Source: Ciconia boyciana (Eukaryota). From it: a stretch of DNA of 64,000 bases. The notes under the pieces were generated by a model. It searched no databases. It worked only from the letters and a program-made list of their open reading frames with translations, and was not told the origin of the DNA. The DNA lies in NCBI RefSeq assembly GCF_034638445.1, contig NC_132969.1, positions 255,423-319,422 of the forward strand, read 5' to 3'. Shown here piece by piece: positions 6,155-33,270 of the stretch (positions within the stretch are counted from its first letter, which is position 1; every line of letters begins with the position of its first letter). The position numbers and the translations under genes are program-made.

Positions 6155-6160
6155 AATAAA
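6155..6160 (+). terminator. EIF3C: Polyadenylation signal AATAAA of EIF3C
   Basis: Hexamer in atataataaagcaact, 44 nt after the stop codon. Confidence 0.7.
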
Positions 6161-6293
6161 GCAACTTGGCACCGATTCGCCTCGTTATGGGGAGCGTTGA
6201 CCCGTGTGGGGCCAGGTTAATGAGTGACGACGAAGCGGGTGGGGGGCGGGGGGAAGGAGGATTTAACGCCTGCCCCACGGCGAGCGCCGACCT

Positions 6294-6476
6294 TTGAGCG
6301 TCAGCCATGGGGCAGGAGCGGGGGGGGGTCGCCGTGGGCGCCCCACGGCGAAAGGAACCCCGTTAAATTTTGGGGAGGGGACGGCGTTTCGGTTGAAGAG
6401 TGGGCGGGAGCTGGTGCGGGCGCTGCTGGTGCTGCGGCTCTGCGCCTTCCCCCGCCTGGTCCGACACGCCGGCACG
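6294..6476 (+). CDS. PRODH2: PRODH2 (hydroxyproline dehydrogenase) first recognisable coding exon; start codon unresolved
   Basis: LNFGEGTAFRLKSGRELVRALLVLRLCAFPRLVRHAGTV aligns with human PRODH2 LSFDGGAFHLKGTGELTRALLVLRLCAWPPLVTHG. Donor GTGAGA at 6477. There is no in-frame ATG upstream; the nearby ATGs at 6220 and 6307 are out of frame. The exon lies only ~130 bp after the EIF3C poly(A) signal. Confidence 0.65.
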
Positions 6477-6558
6477 GTGAGAGAAAAACCCCCCCCACCC
6501 CACCCCACACCCTGCCCCACGGCGCCGTGGGGCAGAGTCTAACCGTTCTGCCCCATAG

Positions 6559-6752
6559 ATCTTAGAAGTCTCACGACGGGTTTTGGGGAGCCGGCTATGG
6601 GGCGGGCTGCTGCGAGCCACCTTCTACGGGCAGTTTGTGGGGGGCGAGACCCCCGCCGAGGTGGTGGCGGCGGCGGGGCGGTTGCGCGCCGTGGGGCTGC
6701 GCCCCATGTTGGCCGTCCCCACCGAGGAAGATGTGGGGCAGGAGAAAGACGG
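6559..6752 (+). CDS. PRODH2: PRODH2 coding exon
   Basis: Acceptor ccccatag (6551-6558). ILEVSRRVLGSRLWGGLLRATFYGQFVGGETPAEVVAAAGRLRAVGLRPMLAVPTEEDVGQEKDG matches human ASVYGQFVAGETAEEV...LRPLLAVPTEEE. Donor GTATGT at 6753. Confidence 0.8.
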
Positions 6753-6830
6753 GTATGTGGGGCTGGCTATGGGGTGGGGAGCGGGGGTTTAAGGCCTCCT
6801 GCCCTACTTCTCCCCCTATGTGTGGGGCAG

Positions 6831-6951
6831 GGAGGAGTGGTACGAAGCCAACCGGGGGGCGGCGCTGGAATGTGTGGGGCTGGCGGCCGCCACCGGCCCC
6901 CGGCCCATGATGCAGCTGAAGGTGACGGCCCTGATGAGCGCCCGCCTCTGC
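6831..6951 (+). CDS. PRODH2: PRODH2 coding exon
   Basis: Acceptor tgtggggcag. (G)EEWYEANRGAALECVGLAAATGPRPMMQLKVTALMSARLC matches human EAWYEGNLGAMLRCVDL...LMQLKVTALTSTRLC. Donor GTGAGT at 6952. Confidence 0.8.
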
Positions 6952-7057
6952 GTGAGTTTGGGGGGCGTAACCCCCCCCCCCCAAAAAAAATAAAGGGGGA
7001 GGAAATTGGGGGGCACCGCCCCTCTGCCCCCCAACCGCGACCCACATCTCCCCATAG

Positions 7058-7135
7058 GAGACGCTGTCACGACGGCTGGCGGAGCCGGTGGCCGAGGTGA
7101 CGCTGGAGCGGGTGGCAGCGGTGATGGGGGGCGAG
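7058..7135 (+). CDS. PRODH2: PRODH2 coding exon
   Basis: Acceptor ccccatag. ETLSRRLAEPVAEVTLERVAAVMGGE. Donor GTAAAC at 7136. Confidence 0.7.
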
Positions 7136-7279
7136 GTAAACCCCCCCCGCCCCCCAAATCTTCCACCCCTCCCCCACATTAGCCCCTCCCCCCCTTTAGC
7201 CCCTCCCCCAATCCTGGAAAGCCCCGAAATTCGGTGAAAATCGGTTAAATCGGGGGAAACTACCCCAAACCGGCCGCAG

Positions 7280-7360
7280 GTCGCCACCTTCGCCTGCCTG
7301 ACGCCGGAGGAGAACCGGCACTTGGGGGTCTCGCTACGGCGCCTGGACGACGTAGCCGGG
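7280..7360 (+). CDS. PRODH2: PRODH2 coding exon
   Basis: Acceptor cggccgcag. VATFACLTPEENRHLGVSLRRLDDVAG matches human LQVSCLNAEQNQHLRASLSRLHRVAQ. Donor GTGAGA at 7361. Confidence 0.78.
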
Positions 7361-7464
7361 GTGAGACGTGGGGCAGAGATGTGGGGCTGGGGGAAAGAAG
7401 GAGGCGGAGCTAGGCGATATTGGGGGCGGGGCCCTCAACCAACGGGGATCCCCCGTACGCCTAG

Positions 7465-7611
7465 TACGCGGCGACGCGGGGGGTGCGGGTGCTGGTGGAC
7501 GCGGAGCAGAGCTACGTCAACCCGGCGTTGAGTTTGACGACTTTGGCCTTGATGGCGCGGCACAACCGGGCTTCGCCGTGGGTCTGGAACACCTACCAAG
7601 CTTATCTCCAG
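7465..7611 (+). CDS. PRODH2: PRODH2 coding exon (FAD-binding proline dehydrogenase domain)
   Basis: YAATRGVRVLVDAEQSYVNPALSLTTLALMARHNRASPWVWNTYQAYLQ matches human YARAQHVRLLVDAEYTSLNPALSLL...GPWVWNTYQACLK. Donor GTAACT at 7612. Confidence 0.85.
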
Positions 7612-7692
7612 GTAACTTATGGGGCAGAGTTATGGGGCAGAGCCCCACGGCGCCACGCTAAAAGCTTTACCCCCCCCCCGCCCCCGCAACAG

Positions 7693-7859
7693 GACGGGAA
7701 GAAACGGTTGGCGGGGGACGCGGCGACGGCGCGGCGGCGGGGGGTGTGTTTCGGGGTGAAGTTGGTGCGAGGGGCGTACCTGGAATTGGAACGGCGCCGG
7801 GCGAGGGAAGGGGGGGACCCCGATCCGGTGCACCCCACTTTAGATGACACCCACCGCAG
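7693..7859 (+). CDS. PRODH2: PRODH2 coding exon
   Basis: Acceptor ccgcaacag. DGKKRLAGDAATARRRGVCFGVKLVRGAYLELERRRAREGGDPDPVHPTLDDTHR matches human AGLAFGVKLVRGAYLDKERAVA...DPTQPDYEATSQSY. Donor GTAACC at 7860. Confidence 0.85.
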
Positions 7860-7931
7860 GTAACCTGGGGGTTTTGGGGGGGGGGGAGGGGCGTCGAGCC
7901 CTATAGCGAGCCCCCCAACTTTTCCCGGCAG

Positions 7932-8042
7932 CTACGGCGAGTGCCTGGAGCTGGCGCTGGCGCTGGCGGCGCAGGACAGGGAGGACGTGGGGGTGATGGT
8001 GGCCACCCATAACGAGCTCTCGGTGCTCCACGCCACCCAAAG
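7932..8042 (+). CDS. PRODH2: PRODH2 coding exon
   Basis: Acceptor tttcccggcag. (S)YGECLELALALAAQDREDVGVMVATHNELSVLHATQ(R) matches human SRCLELMLTHVARHGPMCHLMVASHNEESVRQATKR. Donor GTGGGT at 8043. Confidence 0.85.
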
Positions 8043-8129
8043 GTGGGTGTCACCCCCTTAAAATTTTAGGGGACCCCCCCCCCCAAAAAAACCCCAACAA
8101 CTTAGCCCTGAACCCCCGTTTCGCGGCAG

Positions 8130-8218
8130 AATGGAGGAGCTGGGCATCCCCCGGCAAGGAGGCGGCGTCTGCTTCGGGCAGCTGCTGGGGATGTGCGACC
8201 ACGTCTCCCTGGCGTTGG
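8130..8218 (+). CDS. PRODH2: PRODH2 coding exon
   Basis: Acceptor tcgcggcag. (R)MEELGIPRQGGGVCFGQLLGMCDHVSLAL(G) is almost identical to human MWELGIPLDGTVCFGQLLGMCDHVSLALG. Donor GTAGGG at 8219. Confidence 0.88.
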
Positions 8219-8313
8219 GTAGGGTGACCCCGCCTCTCCCCGCCATCTTTTGGGGTGCCCTCCCCCCCAAAAAAAAAAATTCACCCCCCCCGTCCCGTCC
8301 CGGTTTGGGGTAG

Positions 8314-8483
8314 GCGAAGCCGGTTACGCCGTCTACAAGTCGGTGCCGTACGGGGGAGCGGAGGCGACGCTGCCGTACCTGGCGCGGCGGGCGCAGGAGA
8401 ATCAGGGGGTGCTGCAGGGCGCTCGGCGGGAGAGACGGCTCCTCGCCCGTGAGCTGCGGAGACGCCTCCTGCGGAGAGCCTGA
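8314..8483 (+). CDS. PRODH2: PRODH2 terminal coding exon with TGA stop
   Basis: Acceptor ggtttggggtag. (G)EAGYAVYKSVPYGGAEATLPYLARRAQENQGVLQGARRERRLLARELRRRLLRRA* matches human QAGYVVYKSIPYGSLEEVIPYLIRRAQENRSVLQGARREQELLSQELWRRLL. Stop at 8481-8483. Confidence 0.88.
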
Positions 8484-8489
8484 GGCGCC

Positions 8490-9450
8490 CCGAAACGGAC
8501 GGCGGGCACCCCGAAAGGGACCTCGGGCACCCCGGAACACCCTGAGGCACCCCCGAACACCCTGAGAACGCCGAGACGCCCTCAGATGCCCCAAAACACC
8601 CCCCTGAGGCACCCCGAAATGCCCTCAGGCACCCCGAAATGCTCTCAGGCACCCTGAAACACTCTGAGGCACCCCAAAACACCCCTGAGACCCCCCGAAG
8701 CACCCTCAGACACTCCAAAACACCCTGAGGCACCCTGAAATGAACCTTGGGCACCCCGAAACATCCTGAGGCACCCCCAAAACACCTTGAGACACCCCAA
8801 AATGCCCTCAGACACCCCAAAACGCCCCCAAGACACCCTGAAACACCGTGAGGCACCCCAAAACACCCCTGAGAACCCCAAAATCCCCGAGACACCCCGA
8901 AACACCCTCAGGCACCCCAAAACACCCTCAGGCACCCCAAAACACCCTCAGACAGCCTGAGACACTCCAAAACACCCTGAGGCACCCCCAAACACCCTCA
9001 GACACCCCAAACACCCCCCTGAGGCCCCCCGAAACACCCTGAGGCACCCCGAAACACCCTCAGACACCCCAAACACCCCCCTGAGGCCCCCGAAACACCC
9101 TGAGGCACCCCGAAACACCCTCAGACACCCCAAAACACCCTGAGACCCCCAAAATGCCCCAGAGACCCCCAGCCCCCCCGAGACTCCAAAACCCCCTGAG
9201 GCACCCCAAGACCCCCCGAGAATCCCCAAAACACTCCTCAGCCCCCCAAAATCCCATCAGACCCCAAAACCCCATGAGATCCCCCGAGACCCCCCCCAAT
9301 CCCCCTGGGACCCCCAAACCCTCAGACTCCTCCATCAGCCCCCAAACTCCCGAGAGCCTCCCCAAAACCCCTCCAAACCCCCATGACACCCCCAAAACCT
9401 CCCTGAGAGCCCCCAATCCCCCGAGACACCCCAAAACCCCTCAGACCCCC
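8490..9450. repeat. Minisatellite, ~20-22 bp unit caccccgaaacaccctgagg, in the PRODH2 3' flank (probable 3'UTR)
   Basis: ~45 tandem copies between the PRODH2 stop and the first downstream AATAAA. Confidence 0.85.
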
Positions 9451-9456
9451 AATAAA
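9451..9456 (+). terminator. PRODH2: Candidate PRODH2 polyadenylation signal AATAAA, inside a short inverted repeat (aataaac...gtttatt)
   Basis: This is the first AATAAA downstream of the PRODH2 stop. The reverse-complement hexamer at 9486-9491 forms a palindromic pair around ctcacctggctccactccccgggga. Confidence 0.4.
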
Positions 9457-12998: not shown

Positions 12999-13089
12999 GC
13001 CGCCGCCGCCCCGCCGCCGCCCGCCGCCCCCGCCGAGGCGCTGCAGGTGGACCTGCTGCCGGTGCTGGCCGCCCCCCCGGAGAGCACCC

Positions 13090-13122
<33 letters not shown>

Positions 13123-13684
13123 TGGACGCCGCCGCCCTCAAACCCCCCGCCCCCGAGTCGGCCCCGCCGCCGGTGCCGCCGGTGCCGCCGGTGCCGCCTC
13201 CCTCGGCCGAAGCGCCGCGCAAATCCAAGAGCAAAGGGCCCTACATCTGCTCGCTGTGCGCCAAGGAGTTCAAGAACGGCTACAACCTCCGGCGCCACGA
13301 GGCCATCCACACCGGCACCAAAGCCGCCCGCCCCGGCCCCGCCGCCATGAAGATGCCCACCATGGTGCCCCTCAGCCTGCTGAGCGTGTCGGGGCTGGGG
13401 GGCGGCGGCGGGGCGGAGGGGGGAGCGGCGGCGGCGGCGGCGGCGGCGGCCACGCCCAAGCGGGCGCGGAAGAACCACGCCTGCGAGATGTGCGGGAAGG
13501 CGTTTCGCGACGTCTACCACCTCAACCGCCACAAGCTGTCCCACTCGGACGAGAAGCCGTACCAGTGCCCCGTCTGCCAGCAGCGCTTCAAGCGCAAGGA
13601 CCGGATGAGCTACCACGTCCGTTCCCATGACGGCGCCGTCCACAAGCCCTACATCTGCAGCCACTGTGGGAAGAGCTTCTCCAG
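12999..13684 (+). CDS. MAZ: MAZ large coding exon (Ala/Pro-rich region plus the first C2H2 zinc fingers)
   Basis: Acceptor gccgcag (12996-12998). ...AEALQVDLLPVLAAPPES...KSKSKGPYICSLCAKEFKNGYNLRRHEAIHTG...KNHACEMCGKAFRDVYHLNRHKLSHSDEKPYQCPVCQQRFKRKDRMSYHVRSHDGAVHKPYICSHCGKSFS(R) is near-identical to human MAZ. Donor GT 13685-13686. The exon start is less certain than the end. Confidence 0.85.
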
Positions 13685-13689
13685 GTGGG

Positions 13690-16650
13690 CGGGGCGCGGG
13701 GGCGGGGAGCGGGGCAGGGGGCACGGCGGGGCTGGGGGTGACGGGGGAGACGGTGGGCACGGTGGCGCGGGTGGTTGTGGTGATGCTGGGCGTCATGGGG
13801 ACGATAGGAGTCATGGTGATGCTGGCGGTCATGGGGACGATGGAGGTCGTGGTGACGCTGGGCGTCATGGGGACGATGGGCGTCATGGGGACAATGGGGG
13901 TCATGGTGATGCTGGCGGTCGTGGTGGGACTGGTGGTCACGGTGGCACTGGGCATCATGGGGACAACGGTGGTCATGGTGGTGCAGGCAGTCATGGTGAT
14001 GCTGGTGGTCGTGGTGACGCTGGGCGTCATGGGGACGATGGTGGTCATGGTGATGCTGGGCGTCATGGTGACACTGCAGGTCATGGTGGCACGGGCGGTC
14101 GTGGTGATGCTGGGTGTCGTGGTGACACTGCAGGTCATGGTGATGCTCGGTGTCATGGTGACAATGGCGGTCATGGTGACGTTGGGCATCATGGGGATGC
14201 TGGAGATCATGGTGATGCTGGCGGTCATGGTGGCACTGGCAGGCACGGTGACGATGGTCATGGTGACGCTGGGCATCATGGTGACAATGGAGGTCATGGT
14301 GGCATTGGTGGTCATGGTGATGCTGGGTGCCATTGTGACTGGCTGTCATGGTGACACTGGTGGCCATAGTGGTGCAGGGCGTCATGGTGACAATGCAGGT
14401 CATGGCGGCACTGGTGGTCGTGGTGACGCTGGGTGTCATGGTGACAGTGGCGGTCATGGTGATGCTGGGCGTCATGGTGGCGCTGGTGACCATAGCGACG
14501 CTGGAGATCACGGTGATGGTGGTGGTCACGGTGGCGCTGGTGGTCATGGTGGGACTGGCGCTCATGGTGACGCTGGGGGTCACAATGACACTAGGGGTCA
14601 TGATGATGCTGGAGGTCATGGGGACAATGGTGGTCGTGGTGACAATGCTGGTCACGGTGGTGTTGGGGGTCACGGTGACGCTGGCGGTCATGGGGACAGC
14701 GTTGGTCATGGTGACAATGGCAGTCATGACACTGGGTGTCGTGGTGACAACGGAGATCATGGAGATGCTGGTGGTCACGGCGGGACTGGCGGTCATGGTG
14801 ACAATGGGGGTCACAGTGACGCTGCTGGTCGCGATGATACTGGCAGTTATGGTGGCGCTGGTGGTCGTGGTGGCCATGGCAGTCACGGTGATGCTGGTGG
14901 TCATGGTGGCGCTGGGGGCCATAGTGACGCTGGAGGTCACGGTGACAATGGTGGTCGTGGTGACAACGGTGGTCATGGTGACAGTGGTGGTCACAGCGGT
15001 GCTGGTGGTCATGGTGACAATGGTGGTCATGGTGGCACTGGGCATCATGGTGGTGCTGGTGGCCGTGGTGGTGCTGGTGGTCACGGTGGCGCTGGTGGTC
15101 ATGATCATGCTGGTGGTCATGGTGGTGCTGGCGGTCATGGAGGCACTTGAGGTCACTGTTGGTCACGGTGGCGCTGGTAGCCATGGTGATACCGGCGGTC
15201 AAGGTGATGCTGGACACCATGATGATACCGGTGGTCATGGTGACACTGGTGGTCATGGTGACGGTGGGGGTCATGGAGATGCCGGTGGTCGTGGTGGCAC
15301 TTGAGGTCATTGGTTGTCACAGCGATGGTGGTGGTCATGATGACGTTGGCTGTCACGGTGACAATGGTGGTCACAGTGGGGCTGGTGGTCATGGTGACGA
15401 TGGTGGTCACGGTGGCACGGGGGGTCATGCTGACGGTGAGGGCCATGGAGATGCTGGGGGTCATGGTGGCACTGCTGGTCATGGTGCCAATGGTGGTCAC
15501 GGTGGCACCAGTGGTCATGGTGGCACTGGGGGCCATAGTGACGCTGGAGGTCACGGAGGTGCAGGGGGTCATGGTGGCACTGGTGGTCATGGTGGGACTG
15601 GTGGTCATGGTGACCCTGGCAACCTTGGTGGCCCTGCTGGCCGTGGTGAAGCTGGTGGCCATGGTGGCCGTGGTGATGCTGATGGCCCTGGTGATGCTGG
15701 TGGCCATGGTGGCCATATATGCTGGTGGCCATGATGGCCCTGATGACACCGGTGGTCATTGTGGCCATGGTGACACTGGTGGCCGTGGTGATGCTGGTGG
15801 CCCTGGTGATGCTGGGAGCCCTGGTGATGCTGGTGACGCTGGTGGCCATGGTGACACTGGTAGCCATGGTGATGCTGGTGGCCATGATGGCCATGGTGAT
15901 GCTGGGGGCCCTGGTGATGCTGGTGACACTGGTGGCTGTGGTGATGCTGGGGGCCATGGTGATGCTGCTGATGCTGGTGGCCATGGTGTGACTGGTGGCC
16001 ATGGTGATGCTGGTGGTCCTGGTGGCCGTGGTGACGCTGGTGGCCATGGTGATGCTGGTGAGGCTGGTGGCCATGGTGGGACTGGTGGCCATGGTGATGC
16101 TGGTGGTCCTGGTGGCCGTGGTGACGCTGGTGGCCATGGTGATGCTGGTGGCCATGGCGGGACTGGTGGCCATGGTGACGCTGGTGGCCATAGTGGCCGT
16201 GGTGACGCTGGTGGTTCTGGTGATGCTGGTGACGCTGGTGGTCACAGTGGCTCTGGTGGCCATGGTGATACTGGTGGCCACAGTGACACTGGTGGCCATG
16301 GTGATGCTGGTGGCCCTGGTGGCCCTGGTGGCCATGGTGATGCTGAGGGCCCTGGTGATGCTGGTGGCCATGGTGGCTGTGGTGACGCTGGGGGTCATTG
16401 TGGCCGTGGTGACGCTGGGGGCCCTGGTGACGCTGGGGGCCTTGGTGATGCTGGTGGCCATGGTGACGCTGGGGGCCCTGGTGATGCTGGTGACGCTGGG
16501 GGCCCTGGTGATGCTGGTGGCCATGGTGACGCTGGGGGCCCTGGTGGCCGTGGTGATGCTGGAGGTCCTGGTGATGCTGGTGACGCTGGTGGCCGTGGCG
16601 GGACTGGTGGCCACGGTGATGCTGGTGGCCGTGGTGGCCCTGCCCTCCCC
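13690..16650. repeat. 12-bp-periodic minisatellite family (GGTGGTCATGGTGATGCT variants), MAZ intron 2
   Basis: Same family as 10600-12800. Stop-free in all frames. Confidence 0.85.
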
Positions 16651-23030: not shown

Positions 23031-23120
23031 ACCCCTCATCTCTCCCCCCGCCGTGCCCCCCCCCGCCGTGTCCCCGCCCCCGGCCGCGTCCCCGCCCCCG
23101 CCGTGCCCCGCCCTCCTCAC

Positions 23121-23512: not shown

Positions 23513-23646
23513 GTAAAGGGGGGCGCGGGGGTTGTGGGATACTGGGGGACCGGGGAGGGGCGGGGCGGGGAGGCGGTGACCCGCCCCGCCGCCGCCGCCG
23601 GAAGGGGCGGAGCCTGCGGGGGGAGGAGGCCCCGCCTCCCCGGAAG

Positions 23647-23948: not shown

Positions 23949-23979
<31 letters not shown>

Positions 23980-24586: not shown

Positions 24587-24648
<62 letters not shown>

Positions 24649-25165
24649 AGACGAGAAAGAGAAGAAGCTGCCCCGGAAAAATGAGGTGAAAAAGGTCAAA
24701 AAGAGGAGCAAGGCTGAGAACGACAAAAAGCCCGCGAAAAATGGGGGGGAAAAGGGCAAAACGGACAGTGAGGAAGAGGAGGAGGAAGAGGAAAAGGAGG
24801 AAGAGGAGGAGGAAGAGCGGCCCGTGAAAAATGGGGTGAAAAAGGGCAAAACCAGGAGCGAGCATCAAAAAAAGCCCGTGAAAAATGGGGCAGAAAAGGG
24901 CAAAATGGAGAGTGAGGAAGAGGAAGAGGAGAAAGAGAAAGAGGAAGAAGAGGAGGAAGAGGAAGAAGAGGAGGAAAAGCCGCTCCTAAAATCCGGGGGG
25001 CAAAAGGCCCCCGCAAGGCCGGAGCCTGTGAAAAACGGGGCGAAAAGCGGCAAAACGGGGAGCAAGGAGGAAGAGGAGGAAGAGGCGGGGAGGAAGAGGC
25101 AGAGGCGGGAGTCTTCCTCCTCCTCTTCCTCGCTAGAGGAGGAAGAGCGGGCCCCCCCCCGCAAG
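23647..25165 (+). CDS. HIRIP3: HIRIP3 large acidic coding exon with ~8 internal repeats (EEEE..KLPQKNGVKTGKNGSENQKKPLKIGGKRGKMESEEEE)
   Basis: A 1.5-kb stop-free frame rich in Glu/Lys/Ser with KNGVK motifs, like the human HIRIP3 central region (PAKNGVAAE..). It ends ..SSSSSLEEEERAPPRK at the GTAACC donor (25166). The acceptor at 23645-23646 (ccccggaag|t) is tentative. Confidence 0.7.
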
Positions 25166-25179
25166 GTAACCGGTGCTCC

Positions 25180-25990
25180 TGGGGACGGGAAGGGGGTGGG
25201 GGATTTGGGGGTCTTTAATATTTGGGGGGGTCGGGGGGCATTTGGGGCGGGGGGATTTGGGGGGTCTTTAAGGCTGGGGGGCTCAGAGGGGGATTTGGGG
25301 GGTCTTTAATATTTGGGGGGCAGGGGGGGGATTTGGGGGCTCTTTAAGCCCGGGGGCTCAGAGGGGGATTTGGGGGCTGGGTGGGGCTTTTGGGGTCTGG
25401 GGGAGAATTGGGGGATCTTTAATATTTGGGGGCTCTGGAGGGGGCATTTGGGGGCTGGGGGATTTGGGGGCCCTGGGGGGTCTTTGACACCTGGGGGGCT
25501 TGGGAGGAGGATTTGGGGGGCTGGGGTGGATTTGGGGGGTCTTTAATATCGGGGGGCTCTGGAGGGGGCATTTGGGGGCTGGGGGGGGGATTTGGGGGTC
25601 TTTGACCCCTGGGGACTCAGGAGGGGATTTGGGGGGTTGGGGGGCTTTTGGTGTCTGGGGGGATTTGGGGGGTCTTTAATATTTGGGGGGCTCTGGAGGG
25701 GTTTATGGGGTCGGGGGGGATTTGGAGGGTCTTTAATATTGGGGGGCTGAGGAGGGGATTTGGGGGCTGGGGGGATTTGGTGTCTGGGGGAAATTTGGGG
25801 GGGTCTTTAATATTTGGGGAGGCTCAGGAGGGGCCATTTTGGGGCTGGGGGGACATTTGGTGCCTGGAGGGGGCGCTTTGGGGGTGCCTGGGCGTTATTT
25901 GGGATCCTGGGGGGATTTGGGGGTGCAGGGGGATTTGGGGGTGCCTGTGGGGGGCATTTACCATCTCGGGGGCTGCGGAGGGCACTCACA
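25180..25990. repeat. Minisatellite (~40 bp: gggggatttgggggtctttaatatttgggggctctggaggg) in a HIRIP3 intron
   Basis: Read directly. Confidence 0.8.
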
Positions 25991-26026
25991 CCCCCTCCCC
26001 CACGTTTTGGGGGAGCCCCCCCCCAG

Positions 26027-26191
26027 GTTTCGGGGCGCCGGGGGGGGGGCCCCCCCCCCGTGCGGCGCCTGAAGCGCTACATCCGGGCGTGCGGGGCGCG
26101 CCCCAACTACAAGAAGCTTTTGGGGGGCTGCCGCAGCCTGCGGGAGAGAGTTGGGGTGCTGCGGGGGAGCTGCAGGCCCTCGGCCTCACCG
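26027..26191 (+). CDS. HIRIP3: HIRIP3 coding exon (conserved C-terminal domain, part 1); it contains an apparent 1-bp gap
   Basis: Acceptor cccccccccag (AG 26025-26026). VSGRRGGGPPPVRRLKRYIRACGARPNYKKLLGGCRSLRERVGVLRG matches human AVMRLKRYIRACGAHRNYKKLLGSCCSHKERLSILRAE. The frame then shifts to ..GELQALGLT(G) (human AELEALGMKG). Donor G|GTACTG near 26192. Confidence 0.7.
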
Positions 26192-26199
26192 GTACTGGG

Positions 26200-27560
26200 G
26201 GGCCGGGGGGGCGGTTTGGGGTGCGGGAGGGGTTTGGGGGGCTACAGGGGGTTTGGGGGTGCGGGAGGGGTTTGGGGGGGCTACAGGGGGTTTGGGGTGC
26301 GGGAGGGGTTTGGGGGCGCTACAGGGGGTTTGGGGGGCTACAGGGGGTTTGGGGTGTGGGAGGGGTTTGGGGGGCTACAGGGGGTTTGGGGGTGTGGGAG
26401 GGGTTTGGGGGGCTACAGGGGGTTTGGGGTGTGGGAGGGGTTTGGGGGGCTACAGGGGGTTTGGGGGTGCGGGAGGGGTTTGGGGGCTACAGAGGGGTTT
26501 GGGGGTGTGGGAGGGGTTTGGGGGGCTACAGGGGGTTTGGGGTGCGGGAGGGGTTTGAGGGGGATACAGGGGGTTTGGGGGGCTACAGGGGGTTTGGGGT
26601 GCAGGAGGGGTTTGGGGGGCTACAGGGGGTTTGGGGGCATCAGAGGGGGTTTTGGGGTGCGGGAGCGGGTTTGGGGGATACAGGGGGGCTTGGGGGTCCC
26701 AGAGGGGGATTTGGGGTGCAGGGGGCTACGGGGGGTTTGGGGGGCTATGGGGGTTTGGGGGCATCAGAGGGGGTTTTGGGGTGCGGGAGGGGTTTGGTGG
26801 GCTACAGGGGGTTTGGGGGTGCGGGAGGGGGTTTGGGGGGCAGGGGGGTTTGGGGGGCTACAGGGGGTTTTGGGGTGCAGGAGGGGGTTTGGGGGGCTAC
26901 AGGGGGTTTGGGGGCATCAGAGGGGTTTTGGGGTGCGGGAGCGGGTTTGGGGGATACAGGGGGTTTGGGGAGGGGGCATCAGAGGGGGTTTTGGGGTGCG
27001 GGAGCGGGTTTGGGGGATACAGGGGGTTTGGGGGGCTACAGGGGGTTTGGGGGCATCAGAGGGGGTTTTGGGGTGCGGGAGCGGGTTTGGGGGATACAGG
27101 GGGGCTTGGGGGTCCCAGAGGGGGATTTGGGGTGCAGGGGGGGCTACGGGGGTGGGAGAGAGGAATTGGGGGGGGGGGGGGCATTTTGGGGGGCAGAGGG
27201 GCTCAGGAAGGGGTTTTGGGGGGCTGGGGGCGATTTGGGGGTGCAGGGGTTATTCTGGGGAGCAGGAGGGGCACAAAATGGGGCATTTGGGGGCCATTTT
27301 GGGGGTGCAGGGGTTATTTTGGGGAGCAGGGGTATTTTGGGGTCCAGGGGGACATTTTGGGGTCCGGGGGGCATTTTGGGGTGCAGGGCATATTTTGGGG
27401 AGCATGGGTATTTTGGGGTCCGGGGGGCCCTTTTGGCGCTCGGGGTGGGGCATTTTGGGGCTCAGACCGGGCATTTTGGGGCTCAGGGCAGCCTCGGGAA
27501 GGGGGTTTTGAGGGCTGGGGGTGATTTGGGGTGCGGGGGTGGTTTTGGGGGCCCCTGACT
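26200..27560. repeat. Minisatellite (~31 bp: ggggtttggggggctacagggggtttggggtgcgggagg) in a HIRIP3 intron
   Basis: Read directly; ~40 copies. Confidence 0.85.
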
Positions 27561-27579
27561 CCCCCATCCCCATCCCCAG

Positions 27580-27670
27580 GCCCCCTCCCTGGCTCGCTGC
27601 CGCCGCCTGAAACGCCGCCGCGAGGAAGCGGCCGAGCTGGCGGCGCTGGACGTTGCCAACATCATCCCCG
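27580..27670 (+). CDS. HIRIP3: HIRIP3 coding exon
   Basis: Acceptor ccccatccccag. APSLARCRRLKRRREEAAELAALDVANIIP(G) matches human TPSLGKCRALKEQREEAAEVASLDVANIISG. Donor GTAACA at 27671. Confidence 0.85.
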
Positions 27671-27752
27671 GTAACACCCCCTCCCCACCGTACCCCTAAA
27701 CTCCCCCTCAATTTTTCGGGGCACCCCTTAAACCCCCTTTTTATTCCCTCAG

Positions 27753-27877
27753 GCCGAGCCCGCAGACGCAACGGCTGGAGCCCCCAAATCCCCCGCGAGG
27801 AAACGGGGGCCCCCCTTCCTCCCGTCGACTGGTCGCGCCTTCGGGGCGTCATCAGCTCCGACGGCGAGAGCGATTAA
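27753..27877 (+). CDS. HIRIP3: HIRIP3 terminal coding exon with TAA stop
   Basis: Acceptor ttattccctcag. (G)[40 protein letters not shown] matches human GRPRRRTAWNPLGEAAPPGEL...PPDWSHMRGIISSDGESN*. Stop at 27875-27877, followed by an A15 tract and ATTAAA. Confidence 0.88.
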
Positions 27878-28169
27878 CCCCCCCCAAAAAAAAAAAAAAA
27901 TTTAAAAATTAAACTATATTCATTCCAAAGAGATTTTTTGGGGGTGTTTTCACGTTCTTTTGGGGGTGCTGTAAAAATTTGGGGGGGGTCAATATTTACG
28001 CTGACGGAGGAAAAAACCCGGGGGGCGTTTTGGGGGGGGTCTTCTCCTTCCAGCTGGAAAAGATCTCGCCCCGTCCGGAGAATTTGTTCTTCTAATTTCT
28101 TGTGCCGTTTCATATCCGATAAAACTTTATCCAGGCGAGCTTCCCGCTTCTGCCCGCGCGTCGGGGGGC
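27874..28169 (-). CDS. PAGR1: PAGR1 terminal coding exon; as written the ORF stops at 27874-27876 and overlaps the HIRIP3 stop, but the conserved C-terminus is read in another frame with its stop at 27989-27991
   Basis: Minus strand: acceptor aaatccggcag, then (G)[45 protein letters not shown].. matching human [44 protein letters not shown]. The +2 frame reads ..[10 protein letters not shown] (human ..LFPRQRKY*). The as-written frame runs through the poly-T tract (..[10 protein letters not shown]). Confidence 0.7.
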
Positions 28170-28290
28170 CTGCCGGATTTATCGGGGGGCTAGCGAATAG
28201 CGGGGTCCCCCCTTTTATTTAATTTAAAAAAAAAAAAAAAAAGAAAAAGAAAAGAAAAGGATGGAGGCGGAGGGATGGGGGCGCGCTTAC

Positions 28291-28373
28291 CCGGCGTTCG
28301 CCGCCGATCGATGAGGGAATTTTTGGGGGTGACGGGTTCGTCGTCGAAGTCGAACTCGGTGGGGACGGGCGGC
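28291..28373 (-). CDS. PAGR1: PAGR1 coding exon 2
   Basis: Minus strand: acceptor ttttccccttccag, then (K)[27 protein letters not shown](G). Human is [28 protein letters not shown]. Donor GTAAGC. Confidence 0.88.
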
Positions 28374-28379
28374 CTGGAA

Positions 28380-28560
28380 GGGGAAAAAGCAAATAAAAAT
28401 AAAAATAAATTCTGTAATAAAAGCAAAATCTTCTAATAAAAGCAAAATCCTATAATAAAAACCAAATCTTCTAATAAAAACAAAATCTTCTAATAAAAAC
28501 AAAATCTTCTAATAAAACCAAAATCCTATAATAAAACCAAAATCCTATAATAAAACCAAA
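28380..28560. repeat. AT-rich ~20-bp tandem repeat (aaaatcttctaataaaaacaaa)
   Basis: Read directly; at the 3' edge of PAGR1 intron 1 (minus orientation). Confidence 0.85.
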
Positions 28561-30125
28561 ATCTTCTAATAACAATAATATCGTACATTATCATGTTATT
28601 GTTTGTATTATTATATGCATTACATATGTATAATAATATTAAAATATAATATGATAATATAGTAAATAATATTTAATATTACATCATATTACATGATATA
28701 ATATTAAACTATATTATACAATAATACTCTATATTATATAATCACATTTTATATATTATATAATAATATGTAACATAATATTATATTATATATATTTAAA
28801 TATATAACATCATAATATAATGTATTATATATATAATATGTATTTTATAATATATAACATATAATAATACATTAGTATATATTAACACCTAATAACATAT
28901 ATTAATATGTAATATATATTTTTATATATAATACATCATATATGTATATTTAATATATTATATATATACTACATAACAAAACAATAATGTTATCATAGTA
29001 TAATACTATTTTTATGTATTATAAATTAGTAATAGTATCGTAATTATTAATCGTATCATATTATTATGATATTATGATAATCATACGGTGTTATTAATTG
29101 TATGACACAGTATAATACTATTTTTAATGTATTATAAATTATTAATAGTATCGTAATTATTAATTGTATCATATTATTATAATATTATGATAATCATAGG
29201 GTGTTATTAATCATGACATAGTATAATAGTAATTTTTATACATTATAAATTATTAATAGTATCGTAATTATTAATTGTATCATATTATTATTATATTATG
29301 ATAATCATAGGGTGTTATTAATCGTATGACAGAGTATAATACTATTTTTTATATATTATAAATTATTAATAGTATCGTAATTATTAATCATATCATATTA
29401 TTATAATATGATAATCATAGGGTGTTATTAATCGTATGACACAGTACAATACTATTTTGTATGTATTATAAATTATTAATAGTATTGTAATTATTAATCA
29501 TATCATATTATGATATTATAATCACACGGAGTTATTAATCGTATGACATAATATAATACTATTTTTTATGTATTATAAATTATTAATAGTATTGTAATTA
29601 TTAATTGTATCATATTATTATGCTATTATGATAATCATAGGGTGTTATTAATCGTATGTCATAGTATAATACTACATTTTAGGTATTATAGATTATTAAT
29701 AGTATTGTAATTATTAATCGTATCATATTATTATGATATTATGATAATCACATGCTGTTATTAATCGTATGACATAGTATAATACTATTTTGTATGTATT
29801 ATAAATTATTAATAGTATTGTAATTATTAATCGTATCATATTATTATGCTATTATGATAATCATACCGTGTTATTAATCGTATGTCATAGTATGATACTA
29901 CATTTTATGTATTATAAATTATTAATAGTATTGTAATTATTAATCGTATCATATTATTATGCTATTATGATAATCATACGGTGTTATTAATTGTATGTCA
30001 TAGTATGATACTACATTTTATGTATTATAAATAATTAATAGTATCGTAATTATTAATCGTATCATATTATTATGATATTATAATCACACGGTCTTATTAA
30101 TCGTATGACATCATACAACACCACG
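28560..30125. repeat. AT-rich satellite, ~118-bp unit (..tattataaattattaatagtatcgtaattattaatcgtatcatattattatgatattatgataatcatagggtgttattaatcgtatgacacagtataatactatttt..), ~13 copies inside PAGR1 intron 1
   Basis: Read directly; estimated ~80% A+T inside a window that is otherwise >65% G+C. Confidence 0.9.
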
Positions 30126-30208
30126 TAGAAAAAACGCTAAAAAGAATAAAAACGAGGGGAGGGGATTTGCCCCCCCCCCCGCAATCGGCCGCGGCGCCGC
30201 CATCTTAC

Positions 30209-30576
30209 TTCTCCTCCTCTTCCTCCTCGCTTTCGGGCTGCCCGGCGGAGCGAGGTTCCTCCTCGCTGTCGGGTTCGGGGGTCGGCGCGCGCCGAGGGAG
30301 AGGAACGTGGCGGAGAGGAAGGCTCCCGGTTTCGGCGATGAGTTCGTAAAGTCGTCGGATATCGGGGGGCGGCGGTAACCAACCGTCGGGGGGTTCCCCT
30401 TCTTCTTCGTCGCTCCGAGGAACCCCCCAATCTTCTTCCTCTTCTTCCTCGAGCGTCGCCGTTTCTTCCGCCGCTGGGTTTTCTCCTTCGAGCGGCGGCG
30501 GTTCCGCGGCGTCGGCGACGGCGAGGGATTGCAGCCCCGACGTCACCTCCGCCGCTTCCTCGCTCGCCGGCTCCAT
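30209..30576 (-). CDS. PAGR1: PAGR1 coding exon 1 (acidic N-terminal region)
   Basis: Minus-strand ATG in gcggccATGg is the reverse complement of 30574-30576. [88 protein letters not shown] matches human PAGR1 (EVTSGLQALAVED...DWCVPCSDEE..EIQRLYELLAAHGTLEL..LPRRPPTPEAQSEEE). Donor AA|GTAAGA is the reverse complement of 30203-30208. Confidence 0.85.
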
Positions 30577-30599
30577 GGCCGCTTGCTTGAGGAGGGGAG

Positions 30600-32450
30600 G
30601 GGAGGGGTCAGGCGGCCCCCAAAAAAGCTGCGATTCACCCCAAAAGGGGATGGGAGGAACCGGCGGGCCAGGCCTGAGGTGATCCCGGTGCCCGTAGGGC
30701 CGCCATTTTGAGGCCTGAGGTGGTCCCATCACCCCTGGGGCCGCCATTTTGAGCCCTGAGGTGATCCTGGGGCCGCCATTTTGCGCCCTGAGGTGATCCC
30801 ATCACCCCTGGGGCCACCATGTTGAGCCCTGAGGTGGTCCCGTCACCCCTGGGGCCACCATTTGGAGCCCTGAGGTAGTCCTGGGGACGCCATTTTGCAC
30901 CCTGAGGTGATCCCATCACCCCTGGGGCCACCATGTTGAGGCCTGAGGTGGTCCCGTCACCCCTGGGGCCACCATTTGGAGCCCTGAGGTAGTCCTGGGG
31001 ACGCCATTTTGCGCCCTGAGGTGATCCCATCACCCCTGGGGCCACCATGTTGAGGCCTGAGGTGGTCCCGTCACCCCTGGGGCCACCATTTGGAGCCCTG
31101 AGGTAGTCCTGGGGACGCCATTTTGCGCCCTGAGGTGATCCCGTCACCCCTGGGGCCACCATGTTAAGCCCTGAGGTGGTCCCGTCACCCCTGGGGCCGC
31201 CATTTTGAGCCCTGAGGTGATCCTGGGGCCGCCATTTTGCGCCCTGAGGTGATCCCATCACCCCTGGGGCCACCATGTTGAGCCCTGAGGTGGTCCCGTC
31301 ACCCCTGGGGCCACCATTTGTAGTCCTGGGGACGCCATTTTGAGGCGTGAGGTGATCCCATCACCCCTGGGGCCACCATGTTGAGGCCTGAGGTGGTCCC
31401 GTCACCCCTGGGGCCACCATTTGGAGCCCTGAGGTAGTCCTGGGGACGCCATTTTGCGCCCTGAGGTGATCCCGTCACCCCTGGGGCCACCATGTTAAGC
31501 CCTGAGGTGGTCCCGTCACCCCTGGGGCCACCATTTGGAGCCCTGAGGTAGTCCTGGGGACGCCATTTTGCGCCCTGAGGTGATCCCGTCACCCCTGGGG
31601 CCACCATGTTAAGCCCTGAGGTGGTCCCGTCACCCCTGGGGCCGCCATTTGGAGCCCTGAGGTAGTCCTGGGGACGCCATTTTGAGGCGTGAGGTGATCC
31701 CATCACCCCTGGGGCCACCATTTGGAGCCCTGAGGTGATCCTGGGGCCGCCATTTTGCGCCCTGAGGTGATCCCATCACCCCTGGGGCCGCCATGTTGAG
31801 CCCTGAGGTGGTCCCGTCACCCCTGGGGCCGCCATTTGGAGCCCTGAGGTGGTCCCGTCACCCCTGGGGCCGCCATTTGGAGCCCTGAGGTGGTCCCATC
31901 ACTCCTGGGGCCGCCATTTTGACCCCTGAGGTGGTCCTGGGACGGCTATTTTGAGGCCTGAGGTGGTCCCATCACCCCTGGGGCCACCATGTCAAGCCCT
32001 GAGGTGGCCCTGGGGCCATCATTTTGGGCCCTGAGGCAATCCCATCACTCCTGGGGCCACCATTTAGAGCCCTGAGGTAACTTCACACCCCTGGGGCCAC
32101 CATTTTGAGCTCTGAGGTGGTCCCATTACCTCTGGGGCCAGCATGTTAAGCCCTGAGGTAGTCCTGGGGCCACCATTTTGAGCCCTGAGGTGATCCCATC
32201 ACCCCTGGGGCCACCATTTTGAGCCTCGAGGCCATCCCATCACCTCAGAGGCCGCCATGTCGAAGCCTGAGGTGATCCCGTCCCCCCTGGCACCGCCATG
32301 TCGAGCCCTGAGGTAACCTCACACCCCTGTGGCCGCCATTTTGAACCCCGAGGCGACCCTCACACCCGCAGGGCCGCCATCTTGAGGCCTGAGGTAACTC
32401 CAGCCCCCTCACACCCCTGCAGCCGCCATGGCGAGCCCTGAGGCGACCCC
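30600..32450. repeat. Minisatellite, ~41-42 bp unit (gccctgaggtggtcccgtcacccctggggccaccatgttgag) with a ~120-bp higher-order structure, immediately upstream of the PAGR1 ATG
   Basis: ~45 tandem copies. Each unit carries a Kozak-like gccaccatg on the plus strand. Confidence 0.85.
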
Positions 32451-32589
32451 TGCACCCCCCTCACGCCCCTTCCCAACACTCACCCGGCCCAGGCGGCCTC
32501 CGGACCGGCCGGGGACAAGGACGGGCCCCTCAGACGCCGGACGCCATTTTGTTCCAGCTCCCGCCTTTTTTCCGCTCTCCCCCCTCCCC

Positions 32590-32800
32590 GTTACTACGCA
32601 TGCGCGGGGAGGGACCCGTCACTGAGGGGGGGCGCGCATGCGCAGAGCGACCCGCGCACCGCCTCGGCGCTGTGCGCATGCGCGGCTCCGCTCCGCGCCC
32701 CGGCGGGTTCTCCCAGCCCCGCCCCTTGCTTCGCGGTGGGCGTGGCATGTGCGCGGCCCCGCCTCCCCCCCCTCAGTCGGCGCATGCGCAGGAGGCGGAG
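32590..32800. promoter_or_regulatory. CpG island with four NRF1 palindromes (GCGCATGCGC at ~32597, 32638, 32674, 32783); candidate PAGR1 distal promoter or an independent TSS
   Basis: Motifs read directly; the island is ~2 kb upstream of the PAGR1 ATG, beyond the 41-bp array. Confidence 0.45.
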
Positions 32801-33240
32801 GCCGGGTTACAAACGGGGGCGTTTATTGTCGCTTTTTATTGCTCCGAAATCAAAGCGAATGAGCCCAAAAATTGGGGGGGGAGGGGGGTTGGCAAGTGGG
32901 GGCGGGGCACTCTGGGGGCGTGGCCTTTCCTTGATGGGCGGGGGAAAGATGAGGCCCCCTACCTTGGTACTTAAAGGGGCAAGGCGGGGTGGGGTCCGCC
33001 TTAAAGGGGCCGTGTGTGTGTGTGTGTGAATGTCCCCCTTCCTAAGGGAAATAAATCAGTCTATAAATAAATTAATTGATTAGCACAGCTCGTAACGAAG
33101 CGGGGGGTGTTGTCTGCGGGGGGTATTTACAGAGGAGGGGGCTGGTGGGGGGAGGGCAGCCTTCCCCCCCCCAAAGGTTGGGGTCCTTCCCTCCCCCCCG
33201 CCCACCCTTTGTGGGGCGCTGGGGAGGGGGCGCGGGGCCT

Positions 33241-33270
33241 TCAGATGGAAACCTCGTACTCCCTGGTGTC
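33241..33270 (-). CDS. SEZ6L2: SEZ6L2 terminal coding exon (DTREYEVSI*)
   Basis: Minus strand: acceptor ccccctgcag, then DTREYEVSI and TGA (reverse complement of 33241-33243). The human SEZ6L2 C-terminus is ..NPLYEAGDTREYEVSI. Confidence 0.85.
   Translation of the reverse strand, partial: DTREYEVSI

What the first reader, a model, noticed from the sequence alone, without database searches (positions are those of the whole stretch)
6155..33270. Gene order differs from human 16p11.2: EIF3C-PRODH2-MAZ | INO80E(-)-HIRIP3(+) | PAGR1(-)-SEZ6L2(-), with no PRRT2, MVP, CDIPT, KCTD13, TMEM219, TAOK2 or DOC2A between them
In human the order is MAZ, PRRT2, PAGR1, MVP, CDIPT, SEZ6L2, ASPHD1, KCTD13, TMEM219, TAOK2, HIRIP3, INO80E, DOC2A. 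Here the HIRIP3/INO80E pair keeps its divergent promoter but sits inverted directly after MAZ. PAGR1 is inverted and convergent with HIRIP3. PRODH2, a 19q13 gene in human, lies between EIF3C and MAZ. EIF3C and PRODH2 are separated by only ~130 bp. This implies several inversions or losses relative to mammals, or local assembly joins.
Basis: partly seen in the sequence, partly recalled or inferred. Interest (0 to 1): 0.65.

Follow-up and report, generated by a model that had tools for sequence, protein, structure and literature searches.

The report
Normal bird gene order, not misassembly
The genes sit in the order described, but ostrich, owl, crane and alligator genomes share that order, so it is an ordinary inherited difference between birds and mammals and not an assembly mistake.

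Summary
The window reads EIF3C(+) PRODH2(+) MAZ(+) | INO80E(-) HIRIP3(+) | PAGR1(-) SEZ6L2(-). No PRRT2, MVP, CDIPT, KCTD13, TAOK2 or DOC2A was detected anywhere in the 64 kb. The window is GC-rich bird DNA, 70% tandem repeats. It most likely comes from the Oriental stork (Ciconia boyciana): its PAGR1 translation, including a frameshifted tail, is identical to NCBI's stork protein.

Each junction recurs in at least one independent assembly:
- EIF3C-PRODH2 in ostrich, alligator and Xenopus.
- PRODH2-MAZ in ostrich.
- MAZ/INO80E tail-to-tail in crane and owl.
- INO80E/HIRIP3 and HIRIP3/PAGR1 in ostrich, alligator and owl.
- PAGR1-SEZ6L2 in ostrich, alligator and crane.

This makes assembly misjoins very unlikely. 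The difference from human comes from several old events. The EIF3C-PRODH2 adjacency is ancestral to tetrapods and appears to have been broken in mammals. The PAGR1/HIRIP3 adjacency arose before turtles and archosaurs split. The INO80E/MAZ adjacency looks bird-specific. PAGR1, HIRIP3 and INO80E keep the same relative orientation as in human.

This is ordinary lineage-specific synteny, already visible in public annotation. Interest is low. In passing I found five 1-nt homopolymer frameshifts in conserved exons, probably nanopore errors.

The parts
2131..6111 (+). EIF3C, 3' coding exons (the window starts inside the gene); stop codon 6109-6111
   Evidence: Pfam eIF-3c_N 2e-55; peptides; 96% identity to ostrich and alligator EIF3C exons; stop located
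6155..6160 (+). AATAAA poly(A) signal of EIF3C, 146 bp before the PRODH2 ATG
   Evidence: Read directly from the sequence
6307..8483 (+). PRODH2 (hydroxyproline dehydrogenase), ATG 6307 to stop 8481-8483; apparent 1-nt deletion in exon 1 near 6337-6345
   Evidence: Pfam Pro_dh 6e-32; best named hits are 'hydroxyproline dehydrogenase' of birds, 83-84% identity; N-terminus compared with orthologues
8484..9452 (.). Tandem-repeat array (about 20-bp unit) filling most of the PRODH2-MAZ interval
   Evidence: TRF
13000..18558 (+). MAZ coding exons that could be located (13218-13685, 16716-16790, 16872-17051, 18356-about 18558). The 5' exon or exons were not located. Introns are filled with 18-bp tandem repeats. 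There is an apparent frameshift in C-runs at 18414-18429.
   Evidence: Pfam zf-C2H2; tblastn with recalled human MAZ, E 5e-69 and 1e-41; matches to ostrich, crane and owl MAZ exons; last exon read
20882..23204 (-). INO80E, ATG 23204 to stop 20882-20884; two apparent 1-nt frameshifts in the last exon (about 20915-20950)
   Evidence: Pfam PF24237; named INO80E homologues; exon reading
23205..23480 (.). Interval between the divergent INO80E and HIRIP3 genes (about 277 bp between the INO80E ATG and the putative HIRIP3 ATG)
   Evidence: Coordinates; the HIRIP3 start is inferred, not verified
23481..27877 (+). HIRIP3: putative ATG 23481, acidic repeat region 23769-24976, conserved C-terminal exons 26054-26170, 27580-27675 and 27749-27874, stop 27875-27877
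   Evidence: tblastn with recalled human HIRIP3; Pfam CHZ E=0.001, below cut-off; orthologous exons in ostrich, alligator, turtle, cuckoo and owl
27989..30576 (-). PAGR1: exon 1 30576-30208, exon 2 about 28375-28295, exon 3 about 28170-27989. The conserved stop is 112 bp from the HIRIP3 stop. A 1-nt deficit in the 8-C run at 28032-28039 makes the annotated product read through to 27874.
   Evidence: Pfam PAXIP1_C; translation identical to NCBI Ciconia boyciana PAGR1 isoform X2; sequence
28398..30111 (.). AT-rich composite satellite (GC 12-19%; 19-bp, about 20-bp and 113-bp x10 units) inside PAGR1 intron 1
   Evidence: Composition; TRF
30673..32398 (.). Tandem-repeat array (41/114-bp unit) between the PAGR1 5' end and the SEZ6L2 3' end
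   Evidence: TRF
33241..58660 (-). SEZ6L2: stop 33241-33243, with collinear CUB and Sushi exons up to at least 58660. The N-terminal exons were not located. Introns are filled with tandem repeats.
   Evidence: Pfam Sushi 9e-27; 12 collinear tblastn matches to recalled human SEZ6L2; CUB+Sushi gene in the same position in ostrich, alligator and crane

Best explanation
This is the true, inherited gene order of a bird microchromosome region, most likely from the Oriental stork. It is the product of several old chromosomal rearrangements, not of assembly error.

Three layers can be separated:
1. EIF3C followed head-to-tail by PRODH2 is an ancestral tetrapod adjacency that sauropsids and frogs keep. 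Mammals appear to have moved PRODH2 to another chromosome.
2. The convergent PAGR1/HIRIP3 neighbourhood, without MVP to TAOK2 in between, arose before turtles and archosaurs diverged. SEZ6L2 directly upstream of PAGR1 is seen in the alligator and in birds.
3. MAZ tail-to-tail with INO80E, followed by PRODH2 and EIF3C, is seen only in birds. The alligator has INO80E, an unnamed gene, CLN3, EIF3C and PRODH2 in the opposite orientation. One inversion between the two lineages would explain this.

Shown here: gene identities, their order, and the recurrence of each junction. Inferred: the polarity and number of events. I estimate at least three events and did not reconstruct the exact path. The fate of the absent genes is only partly known. 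TAOK2 exists in a cuckoo next to PAGR1. DOC2A has been reported as missing from birds.
For: Window identity:
- The PAGR1 translation is identical to NCBI's stork protein, including the read-through tail.
- There are no Ns in the window.

Other assemblies:
- Ostrich, one chromosome: EIF3C(+) PRODH2(+) MAZ(+) at 595-622 kb, and INO80E(-) HIRIP3(+) PAGR1(-) SEZ6L2(-) at 642-663 kb.
- Alligator: SEZ6L2 PAGR1 HIRIP3 INO80E, an unnamed 199-aa gene, CLN3; and CLN3 EIF3C PRODH2 on a 40.5-kb contig that also carries INO80E.
- Owl: PAGR1 HIRIP3 INO80E MAZ. Crane: SEZ6L2 PAGR1 INO80E MAZ.
- Turtle: PAGR1, one DSPc gene, then HIRIP3 convergent.
- Xenopus: KIF22 PAGR1 MVP, and EIF3C PRODH2 0.7 Mb away on the same chromosome.
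- Lacerta: KIF22 PAGR1 ASPHD1-like.

Linkage of PRODH2:
- PRODH2 and PAGR1 or INO80E lie on records of identical length in more than 20 amphibians, squamates, turtles and birds.
- They lie on different records in echidna, marsupials, gundi and sengi.

Fate of absent genes:
- The cuckoo kinase next to PAGR1 matches TAO2 best (541 bits).
- DOC2A is listed as missing in birds by Lovell et al..
Against: - About 21 kb of the ostrich chromosome between MAZ and INO80E was not seen, so the MAZ/INO80E junction rests on crane and owl only.
- Cuckoo and crane deviate. The cuckoo has TAOK2-like and trypsin-like flanks. The crane has no HIRIP3. The block is therefore not invariant in birds, or those assemblies have faults.
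- Strand assignments for the human genes come from my own knowledge. Only the order was checked in a paper.
- 'Same contig' in many species was inferred from identical record lengths, not from coordinates.
- No read-level data for the stork assembly were available.
Confidence: 0.9

Rival explanations
1. One or more of the three junctions are chimeric joins made by the assembler or scaffolder, and the real stork genome has a more human-like order.
For: - The probable source is a nanopore assembly scaffolded with Hi-C/3D-DNA.
- 70% of the window is tandem repeats, which invite misassembly.
- Base-level errors are evident in the form of five homopolymer frameshifts.
Against: - Each junction recurs in at least one other species' independent assembly.
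- The window has no N.
- The HIRIP3 and PAGR1 stops are 112 bp apart in non-repetitive DNA, with 109 bp between the annotated gene ends in ostrich and 129 bp in owl.
- PAGR1 exons on both sides of the AT-rich satellite belong to one gene model.
Confidence: 0.02
2. The genes in the window are extra copies (a segmental duplication or dispersed paralogues). The true orthologues lie elsewhere in a mammal-like order.
For: Human 16p11.2 is rich in segmental duplications. EIF3C has a paralogue, EIF3CL, in human (my own knowledge).
Against: - All the genes have introns.
- Conserved exons are intact apart from homopolymer indels.
- In the lists I read, each bird or reptile species shows hits from a single locus, counting isoforms together.
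- The same neighbours recur from frog or alligator to birds.
Confidence: 0.03
3. The seven or eight absent genes were all deleted in the bird lineage, rather than moved elsewhere.
For: - None is in the window.
- DOC2A was reported as missing in birds.
Against: - A 1238-aa TAO2-like kinase lies next to PAGR1 in the cuckoo, so at least TAOK2 survives.
- Many 'missing' bird genes were later found in GC-rich, poorly assembled DNA (abstracts of PMC4539667 and PMC5470226).
- Only 64 kb of the stork genome was examined.
Confidence: 0.1

Closest known systems
Human and rodent 16p11.2 BP4-BP5 interval (KIF22, MAZ, PRRT2, PAGR1, MVP, CDIPT, SEZ6L2, ASPHD1, KCTD13, TMEM219, TAOK2, HIRIP3, INO80E, DOC2A ...; PMC11848116)
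   Same: - Five of the same genes are present (MAZ, PAGR1, SEZ6L2, HIRIP3, INO80E).
- The HIRIP3/INO80E divergent pair is kept.
- PAGR1 and HIRIP3 point towards each other, as in human.
   Different: - MVP to TAOK2 are not between PAGR1 and HIRIP3.
- PRRT2 and DOC2A are absent.
- SEZ6L2 lies upstream of PAGR1 on the same strand.
- MAZ lies downstream of INO80E, tail-to-tail.
- EIF3C and PRODH2 (distal 16p11.2 and 19q13 in human) directly precede MAZ.
The same region in other annotated bird and crocodilian assemblies (ostrich GCA_040807025.1, little owl GCA_965140245.1, whooping crane GCA_028858705.1, American alligator GCA_030867095.1)
   Same: - SEZ6L2-PAGR1-HIRIP3-INO80E order and strands in ostrich and alligator.
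- PAGR1-HIRIP3-INO80E-MAZ in owl.
- EIF3C-PRODH2-MAZ in ostrich.
- High tandem-repeat content in all the bird loci (44-75%).
   Different: - The alligator has CLN3-EIF3C-PRODH2 after INO80E in the other orientation and almost no tandem repeats (4-5%).
- The crane lacks HIRIP3 at this place.
- The cuckoo has different outer flanks.
- The stork genes are several-fold longer because of intronic repeats.
GC-rich 'hidden gene' regions of bird genomes (Hron et al. 2015, PMC4539667; Bornelov et al. 2017, PMC5470226)
   Same: - Very GC-rich DNA (63% overall, up to 80% locally) with long G/C runs.
- The genes are hard to sequence and annotate.
- Base errors are concentrated in homopolymers.
   Different: Here the genes are assembled and mostly annotated. 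The point at issue is their order, not their presence.

Membership tests
Mammalian 16p11.2 collinear block | MAZ followed by PRRT2 and PAGR1 on the same strand | tested here: not met
   MAZ(+) is followed by INO80E(-). PAGR1 is on the opposite strand, 9 kb further on. No CD225/PRRT2 match was found.
Mammalian 16p11.2 collinear block | MVP, CDIPT, SEZ6L2, ASPHD1, KCTD13, TMEM219 and TAOK2 lie between PAGR1 and HIRIP3 | tested here: not met
   The PAGR1 and HIRIP3 stop codons are 112 bp apart. No Vault, CDP-OH_P_transf, BTB, Pkinase or Asp_Arg_Hydrox hits were found. TMEM219 was not tested directly.
Mammalian 16p11.2 collinear block | HIRIP3 and INO80E form a divergent (head-to-head) pair | tested here: met
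   The INO80E ATG is at 23204(-). The putative HIRIP3 ATG is at 23481(+).
Mammalian 16p11.2 collinear block | DOC2A lies convergent downstream of INO80E | tested here: not met
   MAZ lies there instead. No C2 domain or DOC2A match was found.
Archosaur/bird arrangement of this region | SEZ6L2 head-to-tail upstream of PAGR1 | tested here: met
   Seen in the window and in ostrich, alligator and crane.
Archosaur/bird arrangement of this region | PAGR1 and HIRIP3 are adjacent and convergent | tested here: met
   Seen in the window and in ostrich, alligator, cuckoo and owl. The turtle has one gene in between.
Archosaur/bird arrangement of this region | INO80E and MAZ are tail-to-tail (birds) | tested here: met
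   Seen in the window, crane and owl. The ostrich is compatible but has a 21-kb unseen gap. The alligator differs.
Archosaur/bird arrangement of this region | EIF3C is directly followed by PRODH2 on the same strand | tested here: met
   Seen in the window, ostrich, alligator and Xenopus.
Assembly misjoin | The junction is found only in this assembly | tested here: not met
   Each of the six junctions recurs in at least one other species.
Assembly misjoin | A gap or N run sits at the junction | tested here: not met
   There are no Ns in the 64 kb.
Assembly misjoin | Spanning long reads or Hi-C contacts are lacking | not testable with these tools
   No read data were available.
HIRIP3 (gene identity) | C-terminal CHZ-type histone-chaperone motif and a conserved C-terminal tail | tested here: inconclusive
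   Pfam CHZ scored E=0.001, 18.9 bits, below the 23.3-bit cut-off. Three collinear exons are 47-69% identical to recalled human HIRIP3.
SEZ6L2 (rather than SEZ6 or SEZ6L) | Orthology to the 16p11.2 member of the SEZ6 family | tested here: inconclusive
   Sushi domains, 12 collinear matches to recalled human SEZ6L2 and synteny support it. The paralogues were not compared.

The most novel reading that the evidence does not exclude
The contiguous 16p11.2 gene cluster studied in human disease would be a mammal-specific arrangement. On this reading the tetrapod ancestor had EIF3C-PRODH2 linked to KIF22-PAGR1-MVP. The turtle-archosaur ancestor removed MVP to TAOK2 from between PAGR1 and HIRIP3. Birds since then have kept PAGR1 and HIRIP3 convergent, with 112 bp between the stop codons in the stork and 109 and 129 bp between the annotated gene ends in ostrich and owl. 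That could mean overlapping 3' ends with shared termination or mutual regulation. A corollary is that SEZ6L2 is followed beyond the window by ASPHD1, KCTD13 and TAOK2 in the human order.
Probability: 0.3. Interest if true: 0.3.

Novelty: already known. Interest (0 to 1): 0.12.

Why it matters
The finding matters little beyond bookkeeping.
- The window is correctly assembled at the level of gene order.
- The 16p11.2 gene cluster is not a conserved unit outside mammals.
- The human position of PRODH2 is the derived one.

It is useful as a caution: a gene order that differs from human is the norm for bird microchromosomes and is not a sign of misassembly. The practical lesson concerns base-level quality. 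Several conserved genes here carry homopolymer frameshifts that distort the public protein models.

Tried and rejected
- **Hidden missing genes.** I looked for the missing genes in the unrecognised intervals. Those intervals are mostly tandem repeats (8484-9452, 18664-19438, 19764-19937, 30673-32398), or they are PAGR1 itself (27989-30576). Pfam and tblastn found nothing.
- **PDB search for HIRIP3.** No useful match.
- **tblastx of junction intervals against the other loci.** The output was swamped by shared tandem repeats and was uninformative.
- **Literature on bird 16p11.2 synteny.** No paper was found in the library.
- **Exact look-up of the stork PAGR1 isoform.** Not on record, so the rest of the stork scaffold could not be read.
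- **The ostrich '297 aa' gene between EIF3C and PRODH2.** It is a proline-rich ORF inside a tandem repeat, so I rejected it as a real intervening gene.
- **Rfam scan.** Nothing found. The single ARAGORN tRNA call lies inside a repeat array and has no Rfam support.
- **MAZ 5' exon and HIRIP3 N-terminal exons.** These could not be located.

Full report
**What the window is.** The 64 kb has no Ns and is 63% G+C, with 500-base stretches reaching 80%. TRF masks 70% of it as tandem repeats. [quoted passage not shown] The match includes a 38-residue tail that exists only because of a frameshift. The window therefore most likely comes from the Oriental stork reference. A published stork reference is a nanopore assembly polished with short reads and scaffolded with Hi-C (PMC11494145).

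**Gene content.** I translated all six frames, removed tandem repeats and low-complexity ORFs, and scanned the rest against Pfam. The hits were:
- eIF-3c_N (2e-55)
- Pro_dh (6e-32)
- C2H2 zinc fingers (6e-15)
- INO80E PF24237 (4e-07)
- PAXIP1_C (1e-18 and 1.5e-12)
- Sushi (9e-27)

Database searches with spliced models returned named orthologues. These were PAGR1, hydroxyproline dehydrogenase, which is PRODH2 (best bird hits 83-84% identical), and INO80 complex subunit E.

I used human sequences written from memory only as guides for tblastn. MAZ matched at E 5e-69 and 1e-41. HIRIP3 matched in three collinear C-terminal exons. PAGR1 matched in three exons, and SEZ6L2 in 12 collinear exons. HIRIP3 has only weak independent support: Pfam CHZ at E=0.001, below the cut-off, and no PDB match. 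It is, however, the divergent partner of INO80E, and its exons recur in the same position in five other species.

**Coordinates**.

| Gene | Strand | Start | Stop or extent |
|---|---|---|---|
| EIF3C | + | begins off-window | stop 6109-6111; AATAAA 6155-6160 |
| PRODH2 | + | ATG 6307 | stop 8481-8483 |
| MAZ | + | 5' exon not located | zinc-finger exons 13218-17051; last exon to about 18558 |
| INO80E | - | ATG 23204 | stop 20882-20884 |
| HIRIP3 | + | putative ATG 23481 | stop 27875-27877 |
| PAGR1 | - | ATG 30576 | conserved stop 27989-27991 |
| SEZ6L2 | - | N-terminal exons not located | stop 33241-33243; exons to at least 58660 |

**The absent genes.** The Pfam scans found none of the domain families expected of the missing genes: Pkinase, BTB, C2, Vault, CDP-OH_P_transf, CD225 or Asp_Arg_Hydrox. 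tblastn of recalled human TAOK2, KCTD13, CDIPT, MVP, DOC2A and PRRT2 against the whole unmasked window gave nothing at E<=1e-3. The same TAOK2 and MVP queries hit the cuckoo and Xenopus loci strongly, so at least those two queries were good.

The 'unrecognised' intervals leave no room for other genes:
- 8484-9452 is a repeat array.
- The 2.3 kb between the MAZ and INO80E stops is largely repeats.
- 27877-30576 is PAGR1 itself, with an AT-rich satellite in its intron.

TMEM219 was not tested directly.

**Is the order real?** I looked up the contigs that encode orthologues in other species and verified unnamed neighbours by tblastn with window peptides. All loci below are oriented with PAGR1 on the plus strand.

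| Species | Order found |
|---|---|
| Ostrich | SEZ6L2(+) PAGR1(+) HIRIP3(-) INO80E(+); 21 kb further on the same chromosome, MAZ(-) PRODH2(-) EIF3C(-) |
| Little owl | PAGR1(+) HIRIP3(-) INO80E(+) MAZ(-) |
| Whooping crane | SEZ6L2(+) PAGR1(+) INO80E(+) MAZ(-), with no HIRIP3 |
| Alligator | SEZ6L2(+) PAGR1(+) HIRIP3(-) INO80E(+), unnamed gene, CLN3(+); an older contig that also holds INO80E carries CLN3(+) EIF3C(+) PRODH2(+) |
| Terrapin | PAGR1(+), DSPc gene, HIRIP3(-) |
| Sand lizard | KIF22(-) PAGR1(+) ASPHD1-like(-) |
| Xenopus tropicalis | KIF22(-) PAGR1(+) MVP(+); EIF3C(+) PRODH2(+) 0.7 Mb away on the same chromosome |
| Cuckoo | TAO2-like kinase(-) PAGR1(+) HIRIP3(-) trypsin-like(+) |

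Each of the six junctions in the window is thus reproduced in at least one independent assembly of another species. This makes the assembly-join reading very unlikely.

**Polarity (inferred).**
- *EIF3C-PRODH2.* The adjacency is shared by frog, alligator, ostrich and stork, so it is ancestral to tetrapods. PRODH2 lies on a record of the same length as PAGR1 or INO80E in more than 20 amphibians, squamates, turtles and birds, and in coelacanth and axolotl for INO80E. It lies on different records in echidna, marsupials, gundi and sengi. The human location of PRODH2 on 19q13 therefore appears to be the derived state.
- *PAGR1-MVP.* This adjacency is shared by frog and human (order from PMC11848116) and looks ancestral.
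- *PAGR1/HIRIP3.* The adjacency without MVP to TAOK2 is shared by turtle, alligator and birds.
- *INO80E/MAZ.* This adjacency was seen only in birds. The alligator order differs from it by what could be one inversion.

PAGR1, HIRIP3 and INO80E keep their human relative orientation. At least three events are needed, and I could not reconstruct the exact path.

One testable model is that SEZ6L2 is followed, beyond the right end of the window, by ASPHD1, KCTD13 and TAOK2 in the human order. The orientation of the cuckoo TAOK2-like gene fits this, but I could not fetch more sequence.

**Fate of the absent genes.** At least TAOK2 exists in a bird. DOC2A is listed among genes 'missing in birds' by Lovell et al. 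2014, although many such genes were later found in GC-rich DNA (abstracts). The others were not examined.

**Comparison with what is known, and verdict.** The region fails the defining features of the mammalian 16p11.2 block except for the HIRIP3/INO80E pair. It meets all tested features of the arrangement seen in other archosaurs. I found no paper describing bird 16p11.2 synteny in the library. The order is nevertheless visible in public annotation of several genomes, and lineage-specific gene order on bird microchromosomes is expected. I rate the finding as real but ordinary, with low interest.

**Things seen in passing.** Five 1-nt frameshifts lie in C/G runs inside conserved exons of PRODH2, MAZ, INO80E (two) and PAGR1. 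In each case the conserved peptide and stop codon continue in the shifted frame. This points to uncorrected nanopore homopolymer errors, which also distort NCBI's protein model.

Tandem repeats make up 44-75% of the orthologous bird loci, against 0-11% in alligator, turtle and lizard.

Noticed in passing
window about 6337-6345 (PRODH2 exon 1); 18414-18429 (MAZ last exon); about 20915-20950 (INO80E last exon, two sites); 28032-28039 (PAGR1 last exon): There are five apparent 1-nt frameshifts, all in C/G homopolymer runs inside conserved coding exons. In each case the conserved peptide, and where relevant the stop codon, continues in the shifted frame. NCBI's stork PAGR1 isoform X2 carries the resulting false tail. 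These are probably uncorrected nanopore errors in GC-rich DNA rather than gene decay.
   Followed up: partly
whole window; loci L001-L011: 70% of the window is tandem repeats, mostly inside introns. Orthologous loci are 61% repeats in ostrich, 61% in crane, 75% in owl and 44% in cuckoo. They are only 4-5% in alligator, 11% in turtle and 0% in sand lizard. The Xenopus loci are 40-59%. SEZ6L2 spans at least 25 kb here, against 5.3 kb in alligator.
   Followed up: partly
window 28398-30111: A composite AT-rich satellite (GC 12-19%; 19-bp, about 20-bp and 113-bp x10 units) sits inside PAGR1 intron 1, in otherwise 63% GC DNA. The whole PAGR1 gene is only about 0.9 kb in ostrich, alligator and crane, so this is a lineage-specific insertion of unknown origin.
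   Followed up: no
L010 (Grus americana, CM054343.1) 9015-10314: The crane has only about 1.3 kb between PAGR1 and INO80E and no HIRIP3 match there. Either HIRIP3 was lost or moved in the crane, or that assembly has a collapse.
   Followed up: no
L002 (Cuculus canorus, CM030674.1): In the cuckoo a 1238-aa TAO2-like kinase lies upstream of PAGR1 where other birds have SEZ6L2. A trypsin-like gene follows HIRIP3 where others have INO80E. The annotated PAGR1 model also overlaps HIRIP3.
   Followed up: partly
window 27877-27989: The HIRIP3 and PAGR1 stop codons are 112 bp apart and convergent. In ostrich the annotated gene ends are 109 bp apart, in owl 129 bp and in alligator 821 bp. The 3' ends must abut or overlap in birds.
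   Followed up: no
L007 (ostrich) 6569-7504: An annotated 297-aa gene between EIF3C and PRODH2 is a proline-rich ORF lying entirely in a tandem repeat. It is probably a spurious gene call.
   Followed up: yes
L003 (alligator) 17006-18208: An unnamed 199-aa gene lies between INO80E and CLN3 in the alligator. It was not run against any family library. From its position next to CLN3 it could be an IL27-like cytokine gene, but that is a guess from memory.
   Followed up: no
window 60149-60240 (-): ARAGORN calls a 92-nt tRNA-Ser(TGA) inside a tandem-repeat array. Rfam finds no tRNA there at its gathering score, so this is probably a false positive.
   Followed up: partly
window 17226-19438; L010 and L011 MAZ 3' regions: The tandem repeats downstream of the MAZ zinc-finger exons gave many tblastx matches to the same region of the crane and owl loci. 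The repeat family there may be older than the split of these bird orders.
   Followed up: no
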